NCBI RefSeq assembly: GCF_009914755.1
Contig: NC_060927.1
Strand: one strand, 5' to 3'
DNA length: 64,000 nucleotides
From: the human T2T-CHM13v2.0 reference genome, Homo sapiens
Of this stretch, positions 531 through 23,983 are shown one piece after another (positions within the stretch are counted from its first letter, which is position 1; the number at the start of each line of letters is the position of its first letter). Under the pieces are notes generated by a model. That model did no database searches, was not told where the DNA came from, and saw only the letters and a program-made list of their open reading frames with translations. A program made the translations under genes and the position numbers.

Positions 531-1699
531 ATGCTGAGGTGTCTCACGTGAAAAATCAGCTCATGAAGGGAGAAATAGCCTTGGGAGCCAGACCATCCTT
601 GTGAGGGGAGGCTTCCAGTTTATTTTGTTCCCATTCATTACATCAGCACCTGATCCAGATTTTAGATTTTTCTCATGCCAGCTCTGTGTATGGTGAGATG
701 TACGGGAAGTTTAAATAGCTCCACACAGTGTAGTATTTTGTATGTGTTAGCTCGAGCTGCATGCTAGGGGCAGACTGCTACCCAGATGAGAAATTTATAC
801 ACCAGGGCAATCAGCTTGGTTTTAATCAGAAAGGATTTCAGAAACATTGATTCTAAAAGCATTGCTAATCCTTGCGTGAAATCCAGAGTCTTTGGTCATT
901 CACAAAATGAACATTAGAAATATGTTCTGTTAAAATTAGAGGTTTTAAATTAACATATTAGATGCTGTAAGTGGATTCTCCTTGGGCAATTTAGTGGTAG
1001 TCAGGATACATGGCTTGGCCAGAGCATTGTGGGGCCAGTCCTCTGCCCTTGTAAGAGGGTAGAAAGTCCAGGGAGGCCTGCAGTGGGTACTCTCAGGGAT
1101 GACACTGGAGACTTTGTCTCCTGGTCTCCTGCTGCTGCCTCGAGGCTAGTGTCATGCCTGCTGCATGTGAACCTTTTTAGGAAAGGTGAGGTTAAAAGGG
1201 CAAAGACCTGGGACTTCATCCAGCTTGCAAAAACATTTTCTATAAGCCATTTTATGCCTTGTATTTAATAAGTACGTTTAAATAATATATCTGTAATATA
1301 TGGGCCACAACTTGGAGACTTGCTTACATTATAACTTGGCCTTCACTTGCAAAAAGTGAAGACGTTGATTGATCTACTTTTTTTAAAGCTTTTTCCAGAT
1401 CATGGCACATGGAAGGAAAACTGAAACAGAGAATGGCAGTGTTACTGAAGAGATGTGATGAGACTGGAGTTAGGTCTGATAACATGGCTGGAATTTACAG
1501 GGCAGAGTTCTAGAGAAGTAGCAGTCATACAGAGAAGAAGCTTCTGAAATCTGCTCAGAAAAAAAAAAAAAAAAAGAAGCTTCAGGAATCCTAGACTCTT
1601 TGGGTACCAAGTGACAAGTATGCAGCACACGAATCCAGGTGGCTAGGAAAAGAACAAAGCTATGAGCTGAATTGAGATTTGGAGCTTGTATGGAACTGA

Positions 1700-2052
<353 letters not shown>

Positions 2053-2779: not shown

Positions 2780-3057
<278 letters not shown>

Positions 3058-3648
3058 TTAGCCAAAATATTTCCAAATTGATGAAAACTTTAAACCCATA
3101 GATTCAAGAAGCTCAGCAAATCTCAGATGGGGTAAACACAAAAAAATCCACACTAAGGCATATCATGAAAAAAATTGCTGAAACCTAAAAATAACATTAT
3201 TAGAAGGTTACAGAAAAAAAAGACATTACACACAGACGGACAACTATACAAATGATGAATGACTTCTCATTAAAAACAACATGAGCCAAAGACACTGGAA
3301 TGACATCTCAAAAGTACCGAAGGAAAAAAACTGCCTGTCTAGAATTCTATGTCCAGTGAAAATATTGTTCAAAAACTCATTTTCAGGTGAAGAAAAACTA
3401 AAAATTTAGCACCGGCAGAAGAAATACTACTGGAAGTTCTTTAGGAGAAGGAAAATAAAAGAAAAATCTAAATCTACTCCCCAAAATGAATGCTTTAAAT
3501 GGTAAGTACCATTAAATGTACAAGGTCCTTCCCCTATTTATAACTTATGTAAAAGATAATTTACTGTTTAAGGCAAAAAATAATATCAACCTATTGTGAA
3601 TGTTATAATATGTGTAAATAAAATGTATGTTAACAATAGCTCAAAGTG

Positions 3649-3947
3649 GGCTGGGCATAGTAGCTCATGCCTGTAACCGCAGTGTTTTGGGAGGCTGAGG
3701 CAGGAGGATCGCTTGAGCCCAGTGGTTTGAAACCAGCCCGGGCAACACAGTGAGATCCTGGCTCTACAAAAAATACAAAAAAATAATTAGCCAGATGTGG
3801 TGGTGTGCACCTGTAGTCCCAGGTACTTGGGAATCTGAGAGGAGAGGATCGCTTGAGCCCAGGAGTCAGTCTGCAGTGAACTATGATTGCCACTGCACTC
3901 CAGTCTGGGTGACAGAGCAAGACTCTGTAAACAAAGAAGGCAAACAG
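3649..3947 (+). mobile_element. AluJ
   Basis: ggctgggcatagtagctcatgcctgtaa...ggatcgcttgagccc in both arms. Confidence 0.92.
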
Positions 3948-5777: not shown

Positions 5778-6408
5778 AGAAACTGGTGAACTGTGGTCTG
5801 TAGGCCAAACTAGCTGGCCCATTTTCCTATGGCCCACAAAATAAAAATAATGTTTACACTTTTAAATGGTTGGGGAAAATGTTTTTGAAAAGAAGAATAT
5901 TTGGTAATACCTGAATATGATACAAAACTCAAATTTCACTGCCCATGAATAGTTTTATTGGTACCCAGCATGCTCATTCATTTATATATTGTCTATGTTT
6001 ACTTTCACACTATGTCAGCAGAGTCAAGAAGTTACAACTTCATAAAAACCATATGACCCACAGAGCCTAAAATATTTGCAGCCAGGCGCAGTAGCTCATG
6101 CCTCTATTCCCAGGACTTCGGGAGGCTCAGGCGAGTGGATCACTTGAGGCCAGGAGTTTGAGACCAGCCTGGCCAACATGGCAAAACCGAATGTCTACTA
6201 AAAATACAAAAATGGGCTGGGTGTGGTGGTACACGCCTGTGATCCCAGCTACTTGGGAGGCTGGGGCAGGAGAATCACTTGAACCCACGAGGCAGAGGTT
6301 GTAGTGAGCCAAGATTGCACTCTAGCCTGGGCAATAGAGTGAGGCTGTCTCAAAAAAAAAAAAAAAAAAATGCTACTTTCCTTTTTACAGAAAAATTCTG
6401 CCAACCCT
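5778..6408 (+). mobile_element. MER58B-like hAT-Charlie DNA transposon, split by an Alu
   Basis: ttttattggtacccagcatgctcattcatttatatattgtctatg...gcctaaaatattt [Alu] ...tttacagaaaaattctgccaaccc. Confidence 0.85.
6080..6370 (+). mobile_element. Alu (S/J), full length
   Basis: Dimeric Alu with poly(A) ending at 6370. Confidence 0.95.
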
Positions 6409-8918: not shown

Positions 8919-9083
8919 TTCATGGACACACTGCAACACTTGGGAGCTTAGATTTAATCTAAGAACTTCATGATTAAGCCAAAGATGCTTCTTCTCAAAA
9001 CACTTGTATTTTAAAAGGAAACTTAGAGTTCACGCGAGAGCTTTACAGATTGGGCCACTGGAGGTAGTTTAAGAATTAGCTTG

Positions 9084-9389
<306 letters not shown>

Positions 9390-9679
9390 AAGAATTAGCT
9401 TGAGATGGCTGCTGGCAGGTAGATGGGATCTTATCCAAGGAAGGGCTGTCTCTGGAGGCCCTCAAATCCCACCTGTGGCCAGGATTTCTCCAAGTGCAGC
9501 CTGCCTGCAATGTGTTTTACACACACCCAGGGAGCCTACTTATGGGGGTTGTGGGGAGCCAGGAAAGCTAAATTCTATCCAACTCTGTCCAGGATGCTGA
9601 CACAGCATGTGCCTGAGAATGTCCCCTACTCTTCCTAGCTATGACAGGTCCTCTAAGGGGAGTTCTGTTTAAGAGTCAC

Positions 9680-16650: not shown

Positions 16651-17055
16651 CAAATTGATTACATCTCATTTTCTCTTCGAGTAAATGAAGCACCCCTAGA
16701 ATAAGAAAGCAGGAAGAGTGTTGGGGTTATGTGCTTTTGCCTATCTATCACTCTTTCTCCTCCTTTCAGGAACCCACTTCTTTTCCCCCAGGGGATAGCC
16801 TTTCATATGTGTTAAGTGGGGCTGACCTCCCTTCTTCTCCCCAGCTACAAAAGTGGGAATGAGCCTCGGGCTTGGCCGAACCTCCTAACTTGCCCTGATC
16901 ACAATGATAGGTACAGGAATGAGTATATGAACCAAGCTGCCTCCATTATGAGTCCTCCCGTGGACATTTTTCTGGTTATAGATATCATAAAAGTCTCTTT
17001 CAGCACTAAACTTGTAGAGTGTGAATTTCATGCATACGGCAACCAGCTTTCTTGC

Positions 17056-17709
17056 TGTATGGGTCAGGATTTGCTCAGAAAAGCAGAAGCTTTACAAGAT
17101 CTAAATTATAGGGGATTAGAGGAATTTGGCTTTCTGCAATTGTAAGAGCTAATTCTATAGTCTATGTGAAGCTGCTGTTTCTGTGACAGGTTCAGGAAAA
17201 CAAGGTCTACCCTTATCAACAGGCTGTTGAGACGGGAAGATGGACATGAAGTGGGTGAATCAAGGATAAACTGAAATCTGTGAGGATGGGCTGGGACTCA
17301 TGAGGAGAGACTTGGACCAACATTGGTCTCTCCCCACCTCCAAGCCACCCACTTCAATGATGGAAGCAAGCTGGAGGGGAAGCTGGCATCCTTCATCAGA
17401 AAGCTAATCACGCGCCTGGCCCAGGAGTCAGAGAGGGTGGAGGAGGATCCAGCAGGAGGTGAGGATGCTGTGAGCTCAACCTGACGAGGTGAGTGAAGAG
17501 ATGAGTGACAACAGGAGCAGCCACGACAGCACCTCCTGCACTGCCCTGGCCTTCCAAGCATAAAGCGAAATATGATTGCTGCTTTACTTCCACTTCCCAA
17601 TGGCACACAAAATGTCTCTGTGGCCCACACTAACTGCAATTATGTAAAGAAAAGAATTCTGGGAAATACAGTTCCAGCTTAGCTAAGTGGACAGTCCAAG
17701 CATCCCACA
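17056..17709 (-). mobile_element. Old ERVL-class LTR (LTR82/LTR40 group, name tentative) carrying a captured gene fragment
   Basis: TG...CA termini (tgtatgggtcagg ... gaattctgggaaatacagttccagcttagctaagtggaca...cccaca); strand inferred by analogy with MLT2. Confidence 0.7.
17371..17535 (+). pseudogene. APOA4: Decayed APOA4 (apolipoprotein A-IV) coding fragment inside an LTR
   Basis: Translates LEGKLASFIRKLITRLAQESERVEE / (frameshift) IQQEVRML*AQPDEVSEEMSDN; recalled ApoA-IV reads [52 protein letters not shown]. Confidence 0.75.
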
Positions 17710-17865
17710 TTGGCTATATGGAGAGAACTCTTTCAATGGATGGGTAGAGGGCAACAGCCCTGATGACAGCCTTGGAGCCTCTGGATCCAGCCAGCTCTGA
17801 AGCTGTAACTATCACTAGAATTTTCAGTTATGTGAACTATTTGGCTTATACTTGTTTGCTGGGGG

Positions 17866-17950
17866 TTTTTTTGGTTTTTTTTTTGTTTGTTTGTTTTTTT
17901 GAGATGGAGTCTCGCTCTGTCACCCAGGCTGGAGTGCAGTGGTGCAATCT
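17866..17950 (-). mobile_element. Alu 3' fragment
   Basis: T-rich tail + gagatggagtctcgctctgtcacccaggctggagtgcagtggtgcaatct. Confidence 0.9.
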
Positions 17951-19589
17951 CTGTCTCTTGAAAATAAAAGTGGCCTGACTCATATGTGGAGCTAGTTTAG
18001 CATCTAAGAGTAATTTAGTTAAGGCGTTGTAATAGAATTCCAATAAAGAAGTAACTTTGTCAGGGCAATTAGGAACACACTGAAAATCTCTTGGGTAATA
18101 AGGAATGACTATTACACAGCATGTTCAGTTTTGGTGGGTAAAAGAGTGATGGGTAAAGAGTGCGCTAAAAAATGGCCAAAAAAAGTCTTATGTACAAACT
18201 GCTATTAACCTCTGCTGTTAACTTATTACCAAGTGGCAGGTGTAATCTTTGTAGGAGGTAAGATGACACATAGTGGGAAACAGAGGGACACCCAAACAGG
18301 ACCTCCCTGGTAAGTAGCCCCTGAGTTAGGATCCCACATGTCAAAATTTCATTCTTGTTTCTGCAGGTCAAGAAAACTCATCTGGTGTGTGCATATAATT
18401 GTTCAGCTTTCAGGTGTCTGACTCCCTTACCATACCCTCAAGAGACTGATAAATTAACCAGTATAAATTAATTTATGAAGTGTATGTGGCAGTATATTTT
18501 TCCAGGGACTGAAATCCTTGCACCCTTCACCTAGGACACATCTTTCCCAGAGAGAGCTCACTTAGGGTTATCAAATGAAGACCCAGAAGCCTTTTGTGGA
18601 AAGCATGGAATGGTTTGCACAGGGGGAATTTACCTAAGCTCTGGGCCAGCCTGGTACATGACCCTCCTTACTCCACAACCAAGTGGACAAATGTTTGTGA
18701 GTATACACAACCACCAGAAAGTTCTTTTCTTAATGGTTCTTTGGATCCCATCCTATCCTCAAAAACATGCTCTGATTTTTGTGATTGACTCTTGAGAATT
18801 TCCCAAGTCACCTACTTGTCCCAGTTACAGATGACCAAGTAGAGTATCATCTACATAGATATTAAACTTCATCACTAAGAACATACTTTTTAAAAATCAG
18901 GCTTTTAAAAAAATCCCTTCTTTCTCCCTCTCTTTCCAATCCTTTTAAGGTATTAAGCAGTATATGCAAATAAATGTGTGAGGCCCAGGCACAGTCCTTC
19001 CCTTATGGAGCTCAAAGAATCACCCTCCTTATTCTAGATACTATTTCTCTAATTATGCAACCCAAAATTCCATTAGCTTTCTGGAAAGCCATCTCTCACT
19101 ACATATTGAGCCTACCATTTACCAAAGCTCCCTAATATATATTTTCCCTCTTCCAGATGGATTAACTACCCTCCTCCCCTTCTTTCCTTCAGTGGATTTT
19201 TTTTTACTTTTTCCCTCCAATTTCAAAAGTAATATATGCAGCATGCAGAAAATGTAGGACACTATGCAAAAAAAAAAAAAAAAAAAATTTAACCACACTT
19301 TTATTCTCTCTCAAAGCCCGGGAGGCCTCTGTCTACCAACTGCAGGAAGAAGAGCATGCTGGGTAGACAGGACAGATCTCAACTCCATCCACTGTCCCTG
19401 TCTGAGCTCCTCCCACCTGGTGTAAGCCACCTTCACCTCTTACTGCTACAGTCGCTTGGTAACTGGTCTCACTGCTTCTGTTTTTGTGTGTCTCCTTCAC
19501 AGCAGCCTGGGTGCTCCATTAGAATGTAAATCAGACCCCACCACTTCCTTGCTTAAAGCCCCCAGTCATTCCCCATCACAACTAGAATA

Positions 19590-20333
<744 letters not shown>

Positions 20334-20734
20334 TCTGACCCCAGTGCTTCACGGGGTCTGCAAGGCCTTGCCCTTTTCTTCCTCCTCACACCCTCAAGTC
20401 ACCACATTCTAGCCCATGGGGCTTCCTTCTGCCCCTCAAGCACTCCTGGCTGTTCTCAGTTCCCATTCTGGGCACCTCCTGGCTAGCTCTGACTCGGTGT
20501 CAGGACCAGAGGCGCCCCCTACCCCCGCCCCCAATATCTACTTTCAGACATATTGAAGTCCTAACCTCCAGCGCCTCTGCCTAACTCAAGGAGTCCCCCC
20601 ATCTCTTTCCCATTCTTTTATGCCCCCACTTCTACTTTTTCTTTAAAGCACTTATCAATATCTGAAAATATCTTGTTTCTGGGTTTACTGCTTGTATTCC
20701 CCACCCCAAAGAGTGGAAACTCCTTAAGGATGGG

Positions 20735-20935
20735 TTGTTGAGAGACCCCAACACAGCGGCTCTGTGGTTCCCTTCAGGCCTAGGGGTGCTGAGGGGCCCG
20801 GTGCTTCCCCATCCTTTCTCGGCCTCCTTCAGTCCTGCTCTCACCTTTGTAAAGAGTCATCTTCTTCATTAAACTCGCCTTAATTACCCCCTTCTAATGG
20901 GCCACCTCTTCCCTCCCTCGGGCCTGACTCAGATT
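20735..20935 (+). mobile_element. LTR33-like ERVL LTR 3' fragment
   Basis: cccttcaggcctaggggtg...cacctttgtaaag...attaaactc...aattaccc...cctgact. Confidence 0.7.
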
Positions 20936-21089
20936 TGAACTTGACTTTTGTGACAGTGGAGGCTGCGCTGATGATGGATGCCGAATCATCAAAGGCCAGT
21001 CCTGGGCTCTGGTCTGAGTGTCTGGGTAGTCACCACCCGCCTGATCAGCAAGCGCCTTGTCATTTCCCTCCGCCGCTGGCACTCTGTAG

Positions 21090-21560
21090 GCACAGGCATT
21101 ATGAATTAATGCATCTCTAAAAATTAAGCACTGAATCCGGCCCTTTATTTATAGCTCATTTTACAAATGTGAATTAAAGTGGGCCAGTCTTATGACATAA
21201 TCAAATTTATTATCCCCACTTGATAGCTTGGATAGTTAAATACTTCAGTGAATAAACTTAGAATTCATTAAGTCTCATTTTCTCATATTTCATATATTTG
21301 TAATCTACTCTCTTCCCTGGCAGTTTTCAAACAGGAAAATTAAGCCTGGCTCAGAAATTTATGAATGTATTCTTCTAATATTCCTTTAATGAGAAACTCA
21401 TAGGCGGCTTCCTAAGCGAGCCACCCACGGAGCTAACCTATGTAATGTGAGCTACCTTATTGTGTGAATCCTTCTTCATTCCAATTTTCTTTTCTTAAGC
21501 TCTCATTAGCTCTGGAACACCACCTAGGAGAAGTTCTATAGAAACACAGCGAGGAGGGCT
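21090..21560. promoter_or_regulatory. Candidate enhancer (non-repeat block rich in homeodomain and MEF2-like motifs)
   Basis: ATGAATTAATGCAT 21101-21114; TTATTTATAG 21145-21154; TTATGACATAA 21190-21200. Confidence 0.4.
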
Positions 21561-22189
21561 AACTTTTCACCTCCAGGTTGATATTCAGAAGGTTTGGTCA
21601 TAGTTTATGTGCTTAGTGCTCCCTGTTGATTATTAACAGAGTGGAATTAGAGCTTTTGAGCTCCTAGGCAATGTGGTACTCTCTGAGATAGTTTGGAAAT
21701 CAGTTTTTCTGTGGGGAAAGGGAGTCTACATTTCTAGATGCAGACTAAATCCTTCTAAATCCATCCTGTTGCCACTTGTGCTGTGTCAGGTACCACTTTG
21801 GAGGTCCTGTTAACTACTGCAGGAAAGAGTGGGGGGGAGGAGAGAGGGGAGAGAAAGAGAGGGTGAGAGTATACGGCACATACCCAGCTGGCATTTGAGG
21901 AGATCTTAGGTTATCCAAGTAGCCCTGTTAAGTGTGCCTAAAATTCAATATCACTTCAGGATCAGCTGTTTATGTTGGGAATGGTTTGCGTGGTAGGACT
22001 GAGGAGTTAGAGATGTTCTAAAACTGTTACAGCCAAACATTTTTGGCCTGAAACTTAATAGACAGAGCTAGAGGAAGTAGAGTCCGTTAACAAATATTTA
22101 TCTTCTATTCTGTGCAATCCTAGTCTTAGAAGCTGGAGATGCAGCTCTGATCAGGCAGTTAATGCTTACATAGGGCTTATGATGGGCTG

Positions 22190-22376
22190 GGAGTAGTTCT
22201 CAGTGTTTTATATTAACTCCACTTAATCCCCATGGTACCCTGCGAAGTAGGTACTAATATTTTTCCCAGTCTACAGATGGGGAAACTGAGGCTCTGAGAA
22301 GTTAACATGCTCAAGGTCACACAGCCAGTAAATGGGAGGAGAGAGAAGTGACTCCAGAGTTCATGTTCCTAACCAC
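22190..22376 (-). mobile_element. MIR (its last bases resume at ~23599)
   Basis: tacagatggggaaactgaggctctgagaagttaac...caaggtcacacagccagt. Confidence 0.88.
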
Positions 22377-23138
<762 letters not shown>

Positions 23139-23143
23139 ACCCC

Positions 23144-23598
23144 TGTTGTGGATTTAGTTACGTTCTTTGGAAAATATACGGTGAACTCCTAATTCCCAGT
23201 ACCTCAGAATGTGGCCTTGTTTAGATACAGGTCTAGGGACATGTAGACCTGTATGTTGCAGACATTTAGTTAAGATGAAGTCAGACTGGAGTAGGCTGGG
23301 CCCTTAATCCAATGTGACTCATGTTCTCAAAAGCAGAGGAGACACAGAGCAGAAACGGCCAAACGAAGACACACAGACACAGGGAGAAGGCCGTGTGAGG
23401 ACAGAGGTGGGGACTGGGGCGTGCTGCCACAGGTCAAGTGGGAGAGGTGAGAAAAGATCCTCCCTGGAGGCTTCAGAGGTGGCACCTTGCTGACACCTTG
23501 ATGCGAGGCTTCCAGTCTCCAGAACTGTGAGAGAATATGTCGTGTTAAGCCACTCAGGGTGGGGTACTTTGTTATGGCACCCCTGGGAAACTGATACA
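23144..23598 (+). mobile_element. MLT1B/C solo LTR
   Basis: tgttgtgg...cccagtacctcagaatgtg...ccagaactgtgagag...gaaactgataca. Confidence 0.9.
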
Positions 23599-23611
23599 AC
23601 TGCTATGCTAT

Positions 23612-23664
23612 GGGGGTCTCTCAACAACCCAACCCTTAGGGAGTTTACACTCTTGGAGGGGTGG
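23612..23664 (-). repeat. Inverted copy of 20701-20749
   Basis: GGGGTCTCTCAACAACCCA (23613-23631) is the exact reverse complement of 20731-20749; similarity continues to 23664. Confidence 0.85.
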
Positions 23665-23687
23665 ACAATCATCACGAGCCTCATGAG

Positions 23688-23983
23688 ATTCACAAAAGAC
23701 CCTTTCAGTGCCACGCTTGCAGGGTGCAAGTTTTATGCATATGGTGGCCACCTTCCCTGCTGGAAGGGTCAGGACTCAGAAAAGCAGCACCTTTAGAAGA
23801 TCTTTACTATTGGGGTTTTATTATAGGGATTTGGCCTTTTGCAGTCGTAAGAGCTGGTTCCATAGTCCCAGCTGTGTGGCAGCCCATGTCTGTGTCTGAT
23901 ACAGGAACCTGAAGTCTGCAGGCCAGGCCTTTGACTAAGGAAAGATGGGCAGAAAATGGGGGAAGAAAGATAAACTGAAATCC
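23688..23983 (+). repeat. Diverged direct copy of ~16985-17280 (MLT1/ERVL-LTR junction)
   Basis: Colinear blocks: ctttcag, atgcata, gggtcagga, ctcagaaaagcag, aagatct, gtaagagct, aagatgg, ataaactgaaatc. Confidence 0.8.

What the first reader, a model, noticed from the sequence alone, without database searches (positions are those of the whole stretch)
17371..17535. Apolipoprotein A-IV coding sequence captured inside an ancient LTR
Seen: on the + strand 17371-17445 reads LEGKLASFIRKLITRLAQESERVEE. After a frameshift, 17447-17512 reads IQQEVRML*AQPDEVSEEMSDN. Recalled human ApoA-IV (last coding exon) reads [52 protein letters not shown]. That gives 11/25 identities in the first block, then I..E...L.A and EVS....DN after a 4-codon gap. 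The TGA falls at an Arg position, as CpG decay of CGA would predict. The fragment sits inside a TG...CA ERVL-type LTR (17056-17709), probably antisense to it, with no flanking APOA4 sequence or poly(A). Inference: an LTR element captured host mRNA and may have spread it genome-wide. It is absent from the ORF track in this frame. The capture may already be recorded in the family's consensus annotation.
Basis: partly seen in the sequence, partly recalled or inferred. Interest (0 to 1): 0.8.

Follow-up and report, generated by a model that had tools for sequence, protein, structure and literature searches.

The report
APOA4 exon fragment inside ancient LTR
An old retrovirus-like repeat in the human genome carries a roughly 190-base piece of the apolipoprotein A-IV gene; the piece was captured once, more than about 80 million years ago, and copied with the repeat to well over a hundred places, of which this window holds one decayed, non-functional copy.

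Summary

- **Window copy.** On its own it is weak at protein level (tblastn 23-25 bits, no Pfam hit). At DNA level it aligns to APOA4 exon 3 over 198 nt: window 17371-17551, 61.6% identity. None of 300 shuffles and none of 95 window tiles reach its score.
- **Family.** A 78-aa APOA4 piece hits 140 dispersed genomic places. Thirty-four of these have E below 1e-3, better than APOA1, APOA5 or APOE. Fetched copies match APOA4 at up to 72% nt identity over 196 nt (E 5.5e-28) and 42-65% aa identity.
- **One capture.** All copies share the same non-APOA4 flanks and the same junctions. Of 40 copies with both flanks, none lacks the insert.
- **Age and source.** The insert is as diverged between copies as its flanks (about 70%). 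APOA4's CpG sites read CA or TG in the copies.
- **Direction.** It is host to repeat, because paralogues align colinearly across the captured region.
- **Carrier.** TG...CA ends at 17056-17709 and some 5-bp target-site duplications point to a solo class-III (ERVL/MaLR-type) LTR.

Open points: the family name, the LTR's sense strand (a weak hint that the insert is antisense), and whether the source was mRNA or DNA. Ten full-text searches found no published record.

The parts
17056..17709 (.). Solo LTR of an ancient dispersed family, 654 nt, TG...CA ends. Which strand is the LTR's sense strand is not settled; there is a weak hint for the minus strand.
   Evidence: Seven copies begin aligning at window 17055-17058 and many end at 17692-17693. 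The last 16 nt, to 17709, are shared with other copies by inspection. In the TSD test, same-copy flanks match 5/5 in 2 of 8 and 4/5 in 3 of 8. Mismatched-copy controls match 5/5 in 0 of 56. The window copy's own flanks match 4/5 with a 1-nt offset.
17363..17551 (+). Segment derived from APOA4 exon 3. It corresponds to APOA4 residues from about AGDLQKK to LEPYAD of the last-exon ORF, is sense on the + strand, and is decayed.
   Evidence: blastn aligns APOA4 1546-1741 to window 17371-17551 at 61.6% over 198 nt, E 1.3e-5. None of 300 shuffles and none of 95 tiles reach its score. The 5' junction at 17362/17363 comes from the alignment of ten copies with APOA4.
17471..17473 (+). It follows a 2-nt loss near 17446 and precedes a 12-nt deletion.
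   Evidence: At this codon human APOA4 has AGG, and the other copies read CAG 14, TGG 12, TGA 4.
16980..17055 (+). Left flank of the LTR that is repeated, together with the first 223 nt of the LTR, about 6.7 kb downstream.
   Evidence: 16980-17278 aligns to 23686-23982 at 70% over 308 columns. This flank is not a common repeat: a genome search finds only these 2 places.
23686..23982 (+). Second, partial local copy: 76 nt of the same flank plus LTR positions 1-223. It stops before the APOA4-like segment.

Best explanation
Window 17056-17709 is a decayed solo LTR of an ancient class-III-like (ERVL/MaLR-type) retroelement family. Every sampled member of that family carries, in mid-LTR, about 190-210 nt copied from exon 3 of the host gene APOA4.

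The piece was acquired once, in the founder of the family. It was then copied with the LTR to at least 140 places and has since decayed neutrally, with heavy CpG loss.

The window copy is one of the more eroded ones. It has a frameshift, a 12-nt deletion and a stop codon, and I infer that it neither codes nor acts today.

Shown: the homology, its fixed position and junctions, its presence in all sampled copies, its equal age with the flanks, and the host-to-repeat direction.

Inferred: how the capture happened. The likeliest route is non-homologous recombination or template switching during reverse transcription into the U3 part of the LTR, which is the part copied to both ends in the next cycle.
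For: **Family-wide homology**
- a 78-aa APOA4 piece, searched in six frames against the genome, gives 147 matches at E<=10 (150 of 250 candidates were scored). Seven lie in the apolipoprotein genes.
- Of the 147, 39 have E<1e-3. Five of those lie in the apolipoprotein genes and 34 are dispersed (best 7e-10, 51-62% identity). APOE, APOA5 and APOA1 score only about 1e-4.
- all 20 fetched top loci give tblastn HSPs of 42-65% identity over 41-89 aa (E 6e-4 to 7e-13).
- 48 of 54 subjects have DNA HSPs to APOA4. The best is 72.4% over 196 nt, E 5.5e-28. Starts cluster at APOA4 1535-1546 and ends at about 1725-1750.
- 54 of 73 loci have such an HSP.

**Same carrier**
- the copies share the flanking LTR sequence on both sides.

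**Fixed in the family**
- 40 copies have both sides aligned. In 36 the spacing is within 60 nt of an insert-bearing reference, 4 are longer, and 0 fit an empty site.
- of 10 loci chosen only by LTR 5'-part similarity and absent from the protein list, 7 have APOA4 DNA homology. The other 3 are truncated or too decayed.

**Same age as the LTR**
- median pairwise identity is 0.705 in the insert, 0.696 in the 5' flank and 0.694 in the 3' flank. Insert against APOA4 is 0.729.

**CpG decay**
- at APOA4 CpGs in codons 45, 50, 67, 84 and 89 the copies read mostly CA or TG.

**Source gene and direction**
- APOA4 is the best paralogue in 43 of 52 loci with any hit. The other paralogues never exceed 28.5 bits.
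- APOA5, APOA1 and APOE align colinearly with APOA4 ORF residues 8-297, across the captured part. The segment therefore belongs to the old gene family.

**LTR nature**
- TG...CA ends and 5-bp duplications.
Against: - The window copy alone does not reach significance at protein level. It gave no HSP at E<=0.01.
- No provirus was found. No two APOA4-like hits lie in the same orientation within 10 kb among the 147 places. The pair in L011 is a young 95% local duplication.
- No retroviral Pfam domain appears in 70 ORFs of at least 45 aa between the two local copies. That call gave only sub-threshold hits to unrelated families.
- TSD support is partial: 2 of 8 exact.
- L049-L068 were chosen by APOA4 similarity, so the counts that include them are biased upward.
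- The family name and the sense strand are not established.
- The mechanism of capture is inference only. If the insert is antisense to the LTR, as weakly hints, a simple switch to APOA4 mRNA during minus-strand synthesis would not give this orientation.
Confidence: 0.88

Rival explanations
1. Chance or compositional resemblance. GA-rich repeat DNA translates into E/K/R/L-rich helices that look like apolipoprotein 22-mers.
For: The window copy's best protein HSP is only 23-25 bits. One of 300 shuffles equals it. Pfam finds nothing. The top PDB hits are designed helical proteins at E about 0.8.
Against: The DNA-level score of the window copy is beaten by 0 of 300 shuffles and 0 of 95 tiles. Other copies reach E 5.5e-28 at DNA level and 7e-13 at protein level, always against the same APOA4 residues. 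The other paralogues stay at noise level. APOA4's CpG sites are CA or TG in the copies.
Confidence: 0.01
2. Reverse direction: APOA4 exon 3 took up a piece of this LTR (exonisation), so the repeat is the donor.
For: LTR-derived coding exons exist in human genes (PMC2008291, abstract and passages). Sequence similarity alone does not give a direction.
Against: APOA5, APOA1 and APOE align colinearly with APOA4 from ORF residue 8-10 onward, through the shared segment, at E 4e-25 to 4e-13. The segment is therefore part of the ancestral apolipoprotein exon. Homology between LTR and gene stops sharply at both ends inside the exon, and the LTR flanks have no counterpart in APOA4.
Confidence: 0.02
3. 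The carrier is not an LTR. It could be another kind of dispersed repeat, such as a non-autonomous element or a fragment of a larger unit, that happens to end in TG...CA.
For: No paired copies or internal retroviral genes were found. The window copy's left flank is repeated with it 6.7 kb away, which is not expected of a simple solo LTR. No Dfam or RepeatMasker was available.
Against: Unit ends are sharp and common to many copies. 5-bp duplications are exact in 2 of 8 copies against 0 of 56 controls. The size of about 650 nt and the almost exclusively solitary copies fit an old LTR family. By recollection only, the termini resemble MaLR-type LTRs.
Confidence: 0.07
4. The captured piece was kept because it served the element. 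It could have acted as a U3 regulatory module, or as part of a reading frame entering the LTR, rather than as a neutral passenger.
For: It is fixed in all sampled copies. The founder's insert had no frame-breaking indels relative to APOA4: several copies read 55-66 codons without a gap.
Against: Fixation is equally expected for a neutral passenger in the founder. The APOA4 frame is not clearly more open than the other frames beyond the insert. Median distance to the first stop is 61, 49 and 12 nt upstream and 78, 45 and 63 nt downstream for the three frames. No functional data could be consulted.
Confidence: 0.1

Closest known systems
LTR-mediated retroposition and capture of host gene fragments by LTR retrotransposons (Tan et al. 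2016, PMC5131818, abstract read; rice/sorghum survey PMC3726574, abstract seen in the listing)
   Same: Host coding sequence is joined to LTR-retroelement sequence by non-homologous switches, and the chimera can be copied further.
   Different: Here the host piece sits inside the LTR itself, is only about 200 nt long and is fixed in a whole old mammalian family with at least 140 copies. The published animal cases are mostly young single retrocopies lying between LTR pieces. Microsimilarity at the junctions could not be tested without the pre-insertion LTR.
Cassandra-type elements with a 5S rRNA-derived sequence in their LTRs (PMC10886601, abstract seen in the listing)
   Same: A cellular gene-derived module lies within the LTR and is inherited by all copies.
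   Different: In Cassandra the module is an RNA gene with its own promoter, in plants. Here it is a protein-coding exon fragment with no known promoter function, in mammals.
Retroviral transduction of cellular genes such as acute transforming retroviruses (textbook knowledge, no call)
   Same: Capture of host sequence by a retroelement through recombination during replication.
   Different: Transduced oncogenes replace internal genes and are expressed. Here a short fragment lies in the LTR with no sign of expression or selection.
Pack-MULE and Helitron gene-fragment capture (PMC8277862, abstract seen in the listing)
   Same: Amplification of host exon fragments as passengers of a mobile element.
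   Different: Those are DNA transposons that capture at the DNA level, with many independent captures. Here there is one capture in a retroelement LTR.
APOA4 and the apolipoprotein A1/A4/E family (Pfam PF01442)
   Same: The insert is homologous to APOA4 exon 3, up to 65% aa and 72% nt in the best long alignments.
   Different: It is a 63-70-codon fragment without start, signal peptide or the remaining repeats. It is broken in nearly all copies and is not a gene or a processed pseudogene.

Membership tests
APOA4-derived sequence | Significant similarity to APOA4 exon 3 beyond composition | tested here: met
   For the window copy, blastn gives 45.4 bits, reached by 0 of 300 shuffles and 0 of 95 tiles. 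For the family, E goes down to 5.5e-28 at DNA level and 7e-13 at protein level.
APOA4-derived sequence | Closer to APOA4 than to APOA1, APOA5 or APOE | tested here: met
   APOA4 is the best match in 43 of 52 loci with any hit, with up to 61 bits. The other paralogues score at most 28.5 bits.
Pfam Apolipoprotein domain (PF01442) | Score over the curated cut-off of 90 bits | tested here: not met
   There is no hit on four window ORF pieces at E<=10. In the genome scan, six places give only E 0.13-3.8. Five of them I confirmed as copies of this family. This is expected for a fragment of about 65 residues.
LTR of a class-III (ERVL/MaLR-type) retroelement | TG...CA termini and unit ends shared by many copies | tested here: met
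   Starts fall at window 17055-17058 in seven copies. There is a common 3' tail reaching 17709.
LTR of a class-III (ERVL/MaLR-type) retroelement | 5-bp target-site duplication (textbook: class III and MaLR give 5 bp) | tested here: inconclusive
   Same-copy flanks match 5/5 in 2 of 8 and 4/5 in 3 of 8. Controls match 5/5 in 0 of 56 and 4/5 in 12 of 56. One more copy (L065) looks exact by eye. The copies are old, so decay is expected.
LTR of a class-III (ERVL/MaLR-type) retroelement | Pairs of LTRs flanking an internal region with PBS, PPT or pol | tested here: not met
   No same-orientation pair lies within 10 kb among the 147 places. No retroviral Pfam domain was found in 70 ORFs. No polypurine tract lies next to the LTR.
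LTR of a class-III (ERVL/MaLR-type) retroelement | Match to a curated Dfam/Repbase consensus | not testable with these tools
   No repeat library is on hand. The resemblance of the termini to MaLR MLT1-type LTRs is recollection only.

The most novel reading that the evidence does not exclude
The APOA4 fragment was not a passenger. The founder element may have owed its spread to it, either as a regulatory module in U3 (for example gut- or liver-type factor binding carried over from the gene) or as an antisense or coding piece that interfered with host lipoprotein biology. In that case the several hundred fossil copies would preserve a snapshot of the APOA4 exon of an early mammal and of a retroelement-host interaction.
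Probability: 0.08. Interest if true: 0.8.

Novelty: new member of a known kind. Interest (0 to 1): 0.55.

Why it matters
- **A rare mammalian case.** It is a clean example of a host coding-exon fragment fixed inside an LTR and amplified to at least 140 copies. Such cases are well documented in plants and flies but are hardly noted for old mammalian LTR families.
- **Noise in homology searches.** APOA4 protein or Pfam Apolipoprotein searches of mammalian genomes pick up these LTRs.
- **Risk of mis-annotation.** Repeat-masking with a family consensus that contains the fragment could mark APOA4 exon 3 as 'LTR-derived' and so invert the true direction.
- **A natural archive.** The many neutrally decayed copies record the APOA4 sequence, including its CpG sites, at the time of capture, roughly 10^8 years ago. 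That date is an inference from about 0.19 substitutions per site per copy.
- **This locus.** The finding means nothing functional for the window itself. It is a fossil in a gene desert.

Tried and rejected
- **Protein-level tests on the window alone.** Pfam on window ORFs and a PDB sequence search found nothing useful. The window copy is too decayed at protein level.
- **Whole-frame Pfam scan of 17710-23771.** I redid it with 70 stop-free ORFs and saw no retroviral domain.
- **A provirus in the window.** Apart from Alus, the two local copies share only 16980-17278 with 23686-23982.
- **Internal sequence next to other copies.** The window flanks match nothing adjacent to other copies.
- **An LTR pair in L011.** It is a 95% identical 264-nt local duplication.
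- **Extension of APOA4 homology into intron 2 or the start of exon 3.** Ten of 200 shuffled references reach the real total, which is suggestive at best. Downstream there is none: 157 of 200 reach it.
- **A longer reading frame through the insert.** There is no clear signal.
- **Rfam on 16800-17900.** No match at E<=1.
- **Insert-free relatives.** None was found among 40 copies.
- **tRNA primer-binding-site comparison.** It was abandoned. The two small loci obtained were both tRNA-Thr.
- **Smit 1993 on MaLRs.** Not held under the two ids I tried.
- **Literature.** Ten full-text searches and passages of four papers gave no report of APOA4 sequence in an LTR. Supplements, Repbase and Dfam notes were not seen.

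Full report

To avoid using sequence from memory, I located the apolipoprotein genes in the same genome with Pfam PF01442. I then read the APOA4 last exon as an open frame of 351 residues (L032:1060-2115, minus strand).

A pairwise tblastn of that frame against 17056-17709 gives [26 protein letters not shown] against LEGKLASFIRKLITRLAQESERVEED. That is 11 identities in 26 residues, at 25.0 bits, or 23.1 with composition correction. A second colinear HSP, [10 protein letters not shown] against DEVSEEMSDN, lies in the next frame.

Taken alone this is weak:
- Pfam finds nothing in four window ORF pieces at E up to 10.
- A PDB sequence search returns two unrelated helical proteins at E about 0.8.
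- One of 300 dinucleotide shuffles of the LTR reaches 23.1 bits, although 0 of 95 other 654-nt tiles of the window do.

At DNA level the window copy is clearly above chance. APOA4 sense positions 1546-1741 align to window 17371-17551 at 61.6% over 198 nt, 45.4 bits. The shuffles have mean 22.6, sd 3.3 and maximum 31.1 bits, so 0 of 300 reach it. The window tiles have maximum 29.7 bits, so 0 of 95 reach it.

**2. The decisive evidence comes from the rest of the genome.**

The 654 nt are a dispersed repeat: 40 further matches at 65-93% identity over parts of the unit.

A 78-residue APOA4 piece was searched in six frames against the whole genome:
- It gives 147 matches at E<=10. Only 150 of 250 first-look candidates were scored, so this is a lower bound.
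- Seven of the 147 lie in APOA4, APOA1, APOA5 or APOE, leaving 140 dispersed places.
- Thirty-nine of the 147 have E<1e-3. Five of these lie in the apolipoprotein genes and 34 are dispersed.
- The best dispersed hits (E 7e-10 to 1e-7, 47-62% identity) beat the true paralogues, which score about 1e-4.
- Nine of the dispersed places coincide with repeat copies found by DNA.

I fetched the 20 best places. All 20 give tblastn HSPs to the same APOA4 residues, roughly AGDLQKK...LEPYAD. Identity is 42-65% over 41-89 residues, with E from 6e-4 to 7e-13. The window stretch included in that call gave no HSP at E<=0.01.

At DNA level, 48 of 54 subjects have HSPs to APOA4. The best is L050, at 72.4% over 196 nt with E 5.5e-28. 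With more loci, 54 of 73 have such an HSP, at a median identity of 67.5%.

L049-L068 were chosen by APOA4 similarity, so they inflate these fractions. As a less biased sample I took ten loci chosen only by similarity to the LTR's 5' part and absent from the protein list. Seven of the ten have APOA4 DNA homology. The other three are truncated before or within the insert, or are too decayed.

**3. One capture, fixed in the family.**

In APOA4 coordinates the HSPs start within 1535-1546 and end around 1725-1750. An alignment of ten copies with the exon shows common junctions. In the window these lie at 17362/17363 and at about 17551.

Forty copies have LTR sequence aligned on both sides of the insert. 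Their spacing compares with an insert-bearing reference as follows:

| Spacing relative to reference | Copies |
|---|---|
| Within 60 nt | 36 |
| Longer (secondary insertions) | 4 |
| About 200 nt shorter (empty site) | 0 |

Divergence between copies is the same inside and outside the insert:

| Comparison | Median identity |
|---|---|
| Insert, copy against copy | 0.705 |
| 5' flank, copy against copy | 0.696 |
| 3' flank, copy against copy | 0.694 |
| Insert, copy against human APOA4 | 0.729 |

This is as expected if the gene changed more slowly than the neutral copies.

At the CpG dinucleotides of human APOA4 within the segment, the copies read overwhelmingly CA or TG and rarely CG. For example, codon 45 (CGC) reads CA 29 and CG 6. 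Codon 67 (CGG) reads CA 22, TG 13 and CG 4. That is the signature of methyl-CpG decay of a sequence that had the gene's CpGs.

The codon under the window's TGA (17471-17473) is AGG in human APOA4. In the copies it reads CAG 14, TGG 12 and TGA 4.

A Jukes-Cantor distance of 0.37-0.39 between copies means about 0.19 substitutions per site per copy. By inference this gives an age of the order of 10^8 years.

**4. Source gene and direction.**

APOA4 is the best of the four paralogues in 43 of the 52 loci with any hit, at up to 61 bits. APOA1, APOA5 and APOE never exceed 28.5 bits.

APOA5, APOA1 and APOE align colinearly with APOA4 ORF residues 8-297, 8-213 and 9-245, at E 4e-25, 3e-19 and 4e-13. 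The captured part therefore belongs to the ancestral apolipoprotein exon. The gene is the donor and the repeat is the recipient.

The captured piece lies wholly within exon 3. A test for further homology upstream, into intron 2 or the exon start, is marginal: 10 of 200 shuffled references reach the real total. Downstream there is none: 157 of 200 reach it. Whether spliced mRNA, pre-mRNA or DNA was the source cannot be told.

**5. The carrier.**

Sensitive alignments show seven copies starting at window 17055-17058 and many ending at 17692-17693. Inspection shows that the following 16 nt, to 17709, are also shared.

Flanking 5-mers of the same copy match 5/5 in 2 of 8 copies and 4/5 in 3 of 8. 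Mismatched left-right pairs match 5/5 in 0 of 56 and 4/5 in 12 of 56. One more copy looks exact by eye. Five-base duplications are the textbook mark of class-III (ERVL/MaLR) elements.

Against a full membership claim:
- No provirus was found.
- There is no same-orientation pair within 10 kb among the 147 places.
- There is no retroviral Pfam domain in 70 ORFs of at least 45 aa between the two local copies.
- No repeat library was available.

By recollection only, the termini look like MaLR MLT1-type LTRs. This is a lead, not a test.

**6. Orientation.**

The APOA4 sense strand is the window's + strand. The only recurrent poly(A)-signal-like hexamer in the family is TTTATT on that strand, 41-60 nt from the + strand start, in 12 of 53 copies. 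No AATAAA recurs on the + strand.

This hints that the LTR's own sense strand is the minus strand, with its poly(A) signal about 50 nt from its 3' end. I put this at about 0.6. If so, the insert occupies roughly positions 159-347 of the 654-nt LTR, in U3.

**7. How it works.**

Today it most likely does nothing. The window copy has a 2-nt loss, a 12-nt deletion and a stop codon. It has no Rfam match and lies in a gene desert.

Its origin is inferred. A non-homologous event placed about 200 nt of APOA4 into the U3 part of a replicating element. Because U3 of the RNA genome is copied to both LTRs, the insert became part of every descendant.

Microsimilarity-guided template switching between LTR-element RNA and host mRNA is documented in animals (PMC5131818, abstract). 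An antisense orientation would call for a different route, such as an antisense transcript, plus-strand synthesis, or repair-mediated insertion of DNA.

I found no sign that the insert was selected. The APOA4 frame is not clearly more open than the other frames beyond the insert.

**8. Known or new?**

Ten full-text searches and passages of four papers gave no report of APOA4 sequence in an LTR or MaLR family.

The curated family consensus must contain the block, since it is fixed in the family. Whether its origin is noted in Dfam or Repbase I could not see, and I saw no supplements.

I file it as a new member of a known kind, namely host-gene fragments captured and amplified by LTR retroelements. 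It is unusual in three ways: it lies inside the LTR, it is old and mammalian, and it is present in every sampled copy.

Noticed in passing
window 16980-17278 and 23686-23982: The first 223 nt of the LTR, together with 76 nt of its left flank, are repeated about 6.7 kb downstream at 70% identity. The flank is not a common repeat: a genome search finds only these 2 places. It may be an old local duplication, or LTR-adjacent internal sequence kept twice. This is unexplained.
   Followed up: partly
L056 (G000:C17:5529086-5534365), about 1471-1716 minus strand and 3565-3825 plus strand: Two copies of the APOA4-bearing LTR lie in inverted orientation about 2 kb apart, with nearly the same reading. 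This is an inverted duplication of the locus.
   Followed up: no
L011 (G000:C17:52257677-52260900), 1334-1597 and 2787-3050: A 264-nt piece of the LTR is duplicated 1.45 kb downstream at 95% identity. This is a young local duplication, not an LTR pair.
   Followed up: yes
L003 (G000:C23:20531442-20534611), inside the APOA4-like segment: This copy carries about 86 extra nt within the insert (alignment columns 465-550). Its origin was not examined.
   Followed up: no
Genome-wide; six places listed (e.g. G000:C23:23902500-23902619, G000:C15:72019678-72019824): The Pfam Apolipoprotein model gives sub-threshold six-frame hits (E 0.13-3.8) at copies of this LTR family. This is a source of spurious 'apolipoprotein-like' signals in genome scans.
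   Followed up: partly
window 17867-17951 and many other places (e.g. 6065-6370, 9069-9394, 19808-20133, 22688-23016): Alu-type repeats flank and fill the region between the two local LTR copies. They account for all other self-similarity found there.
   Followed up: no
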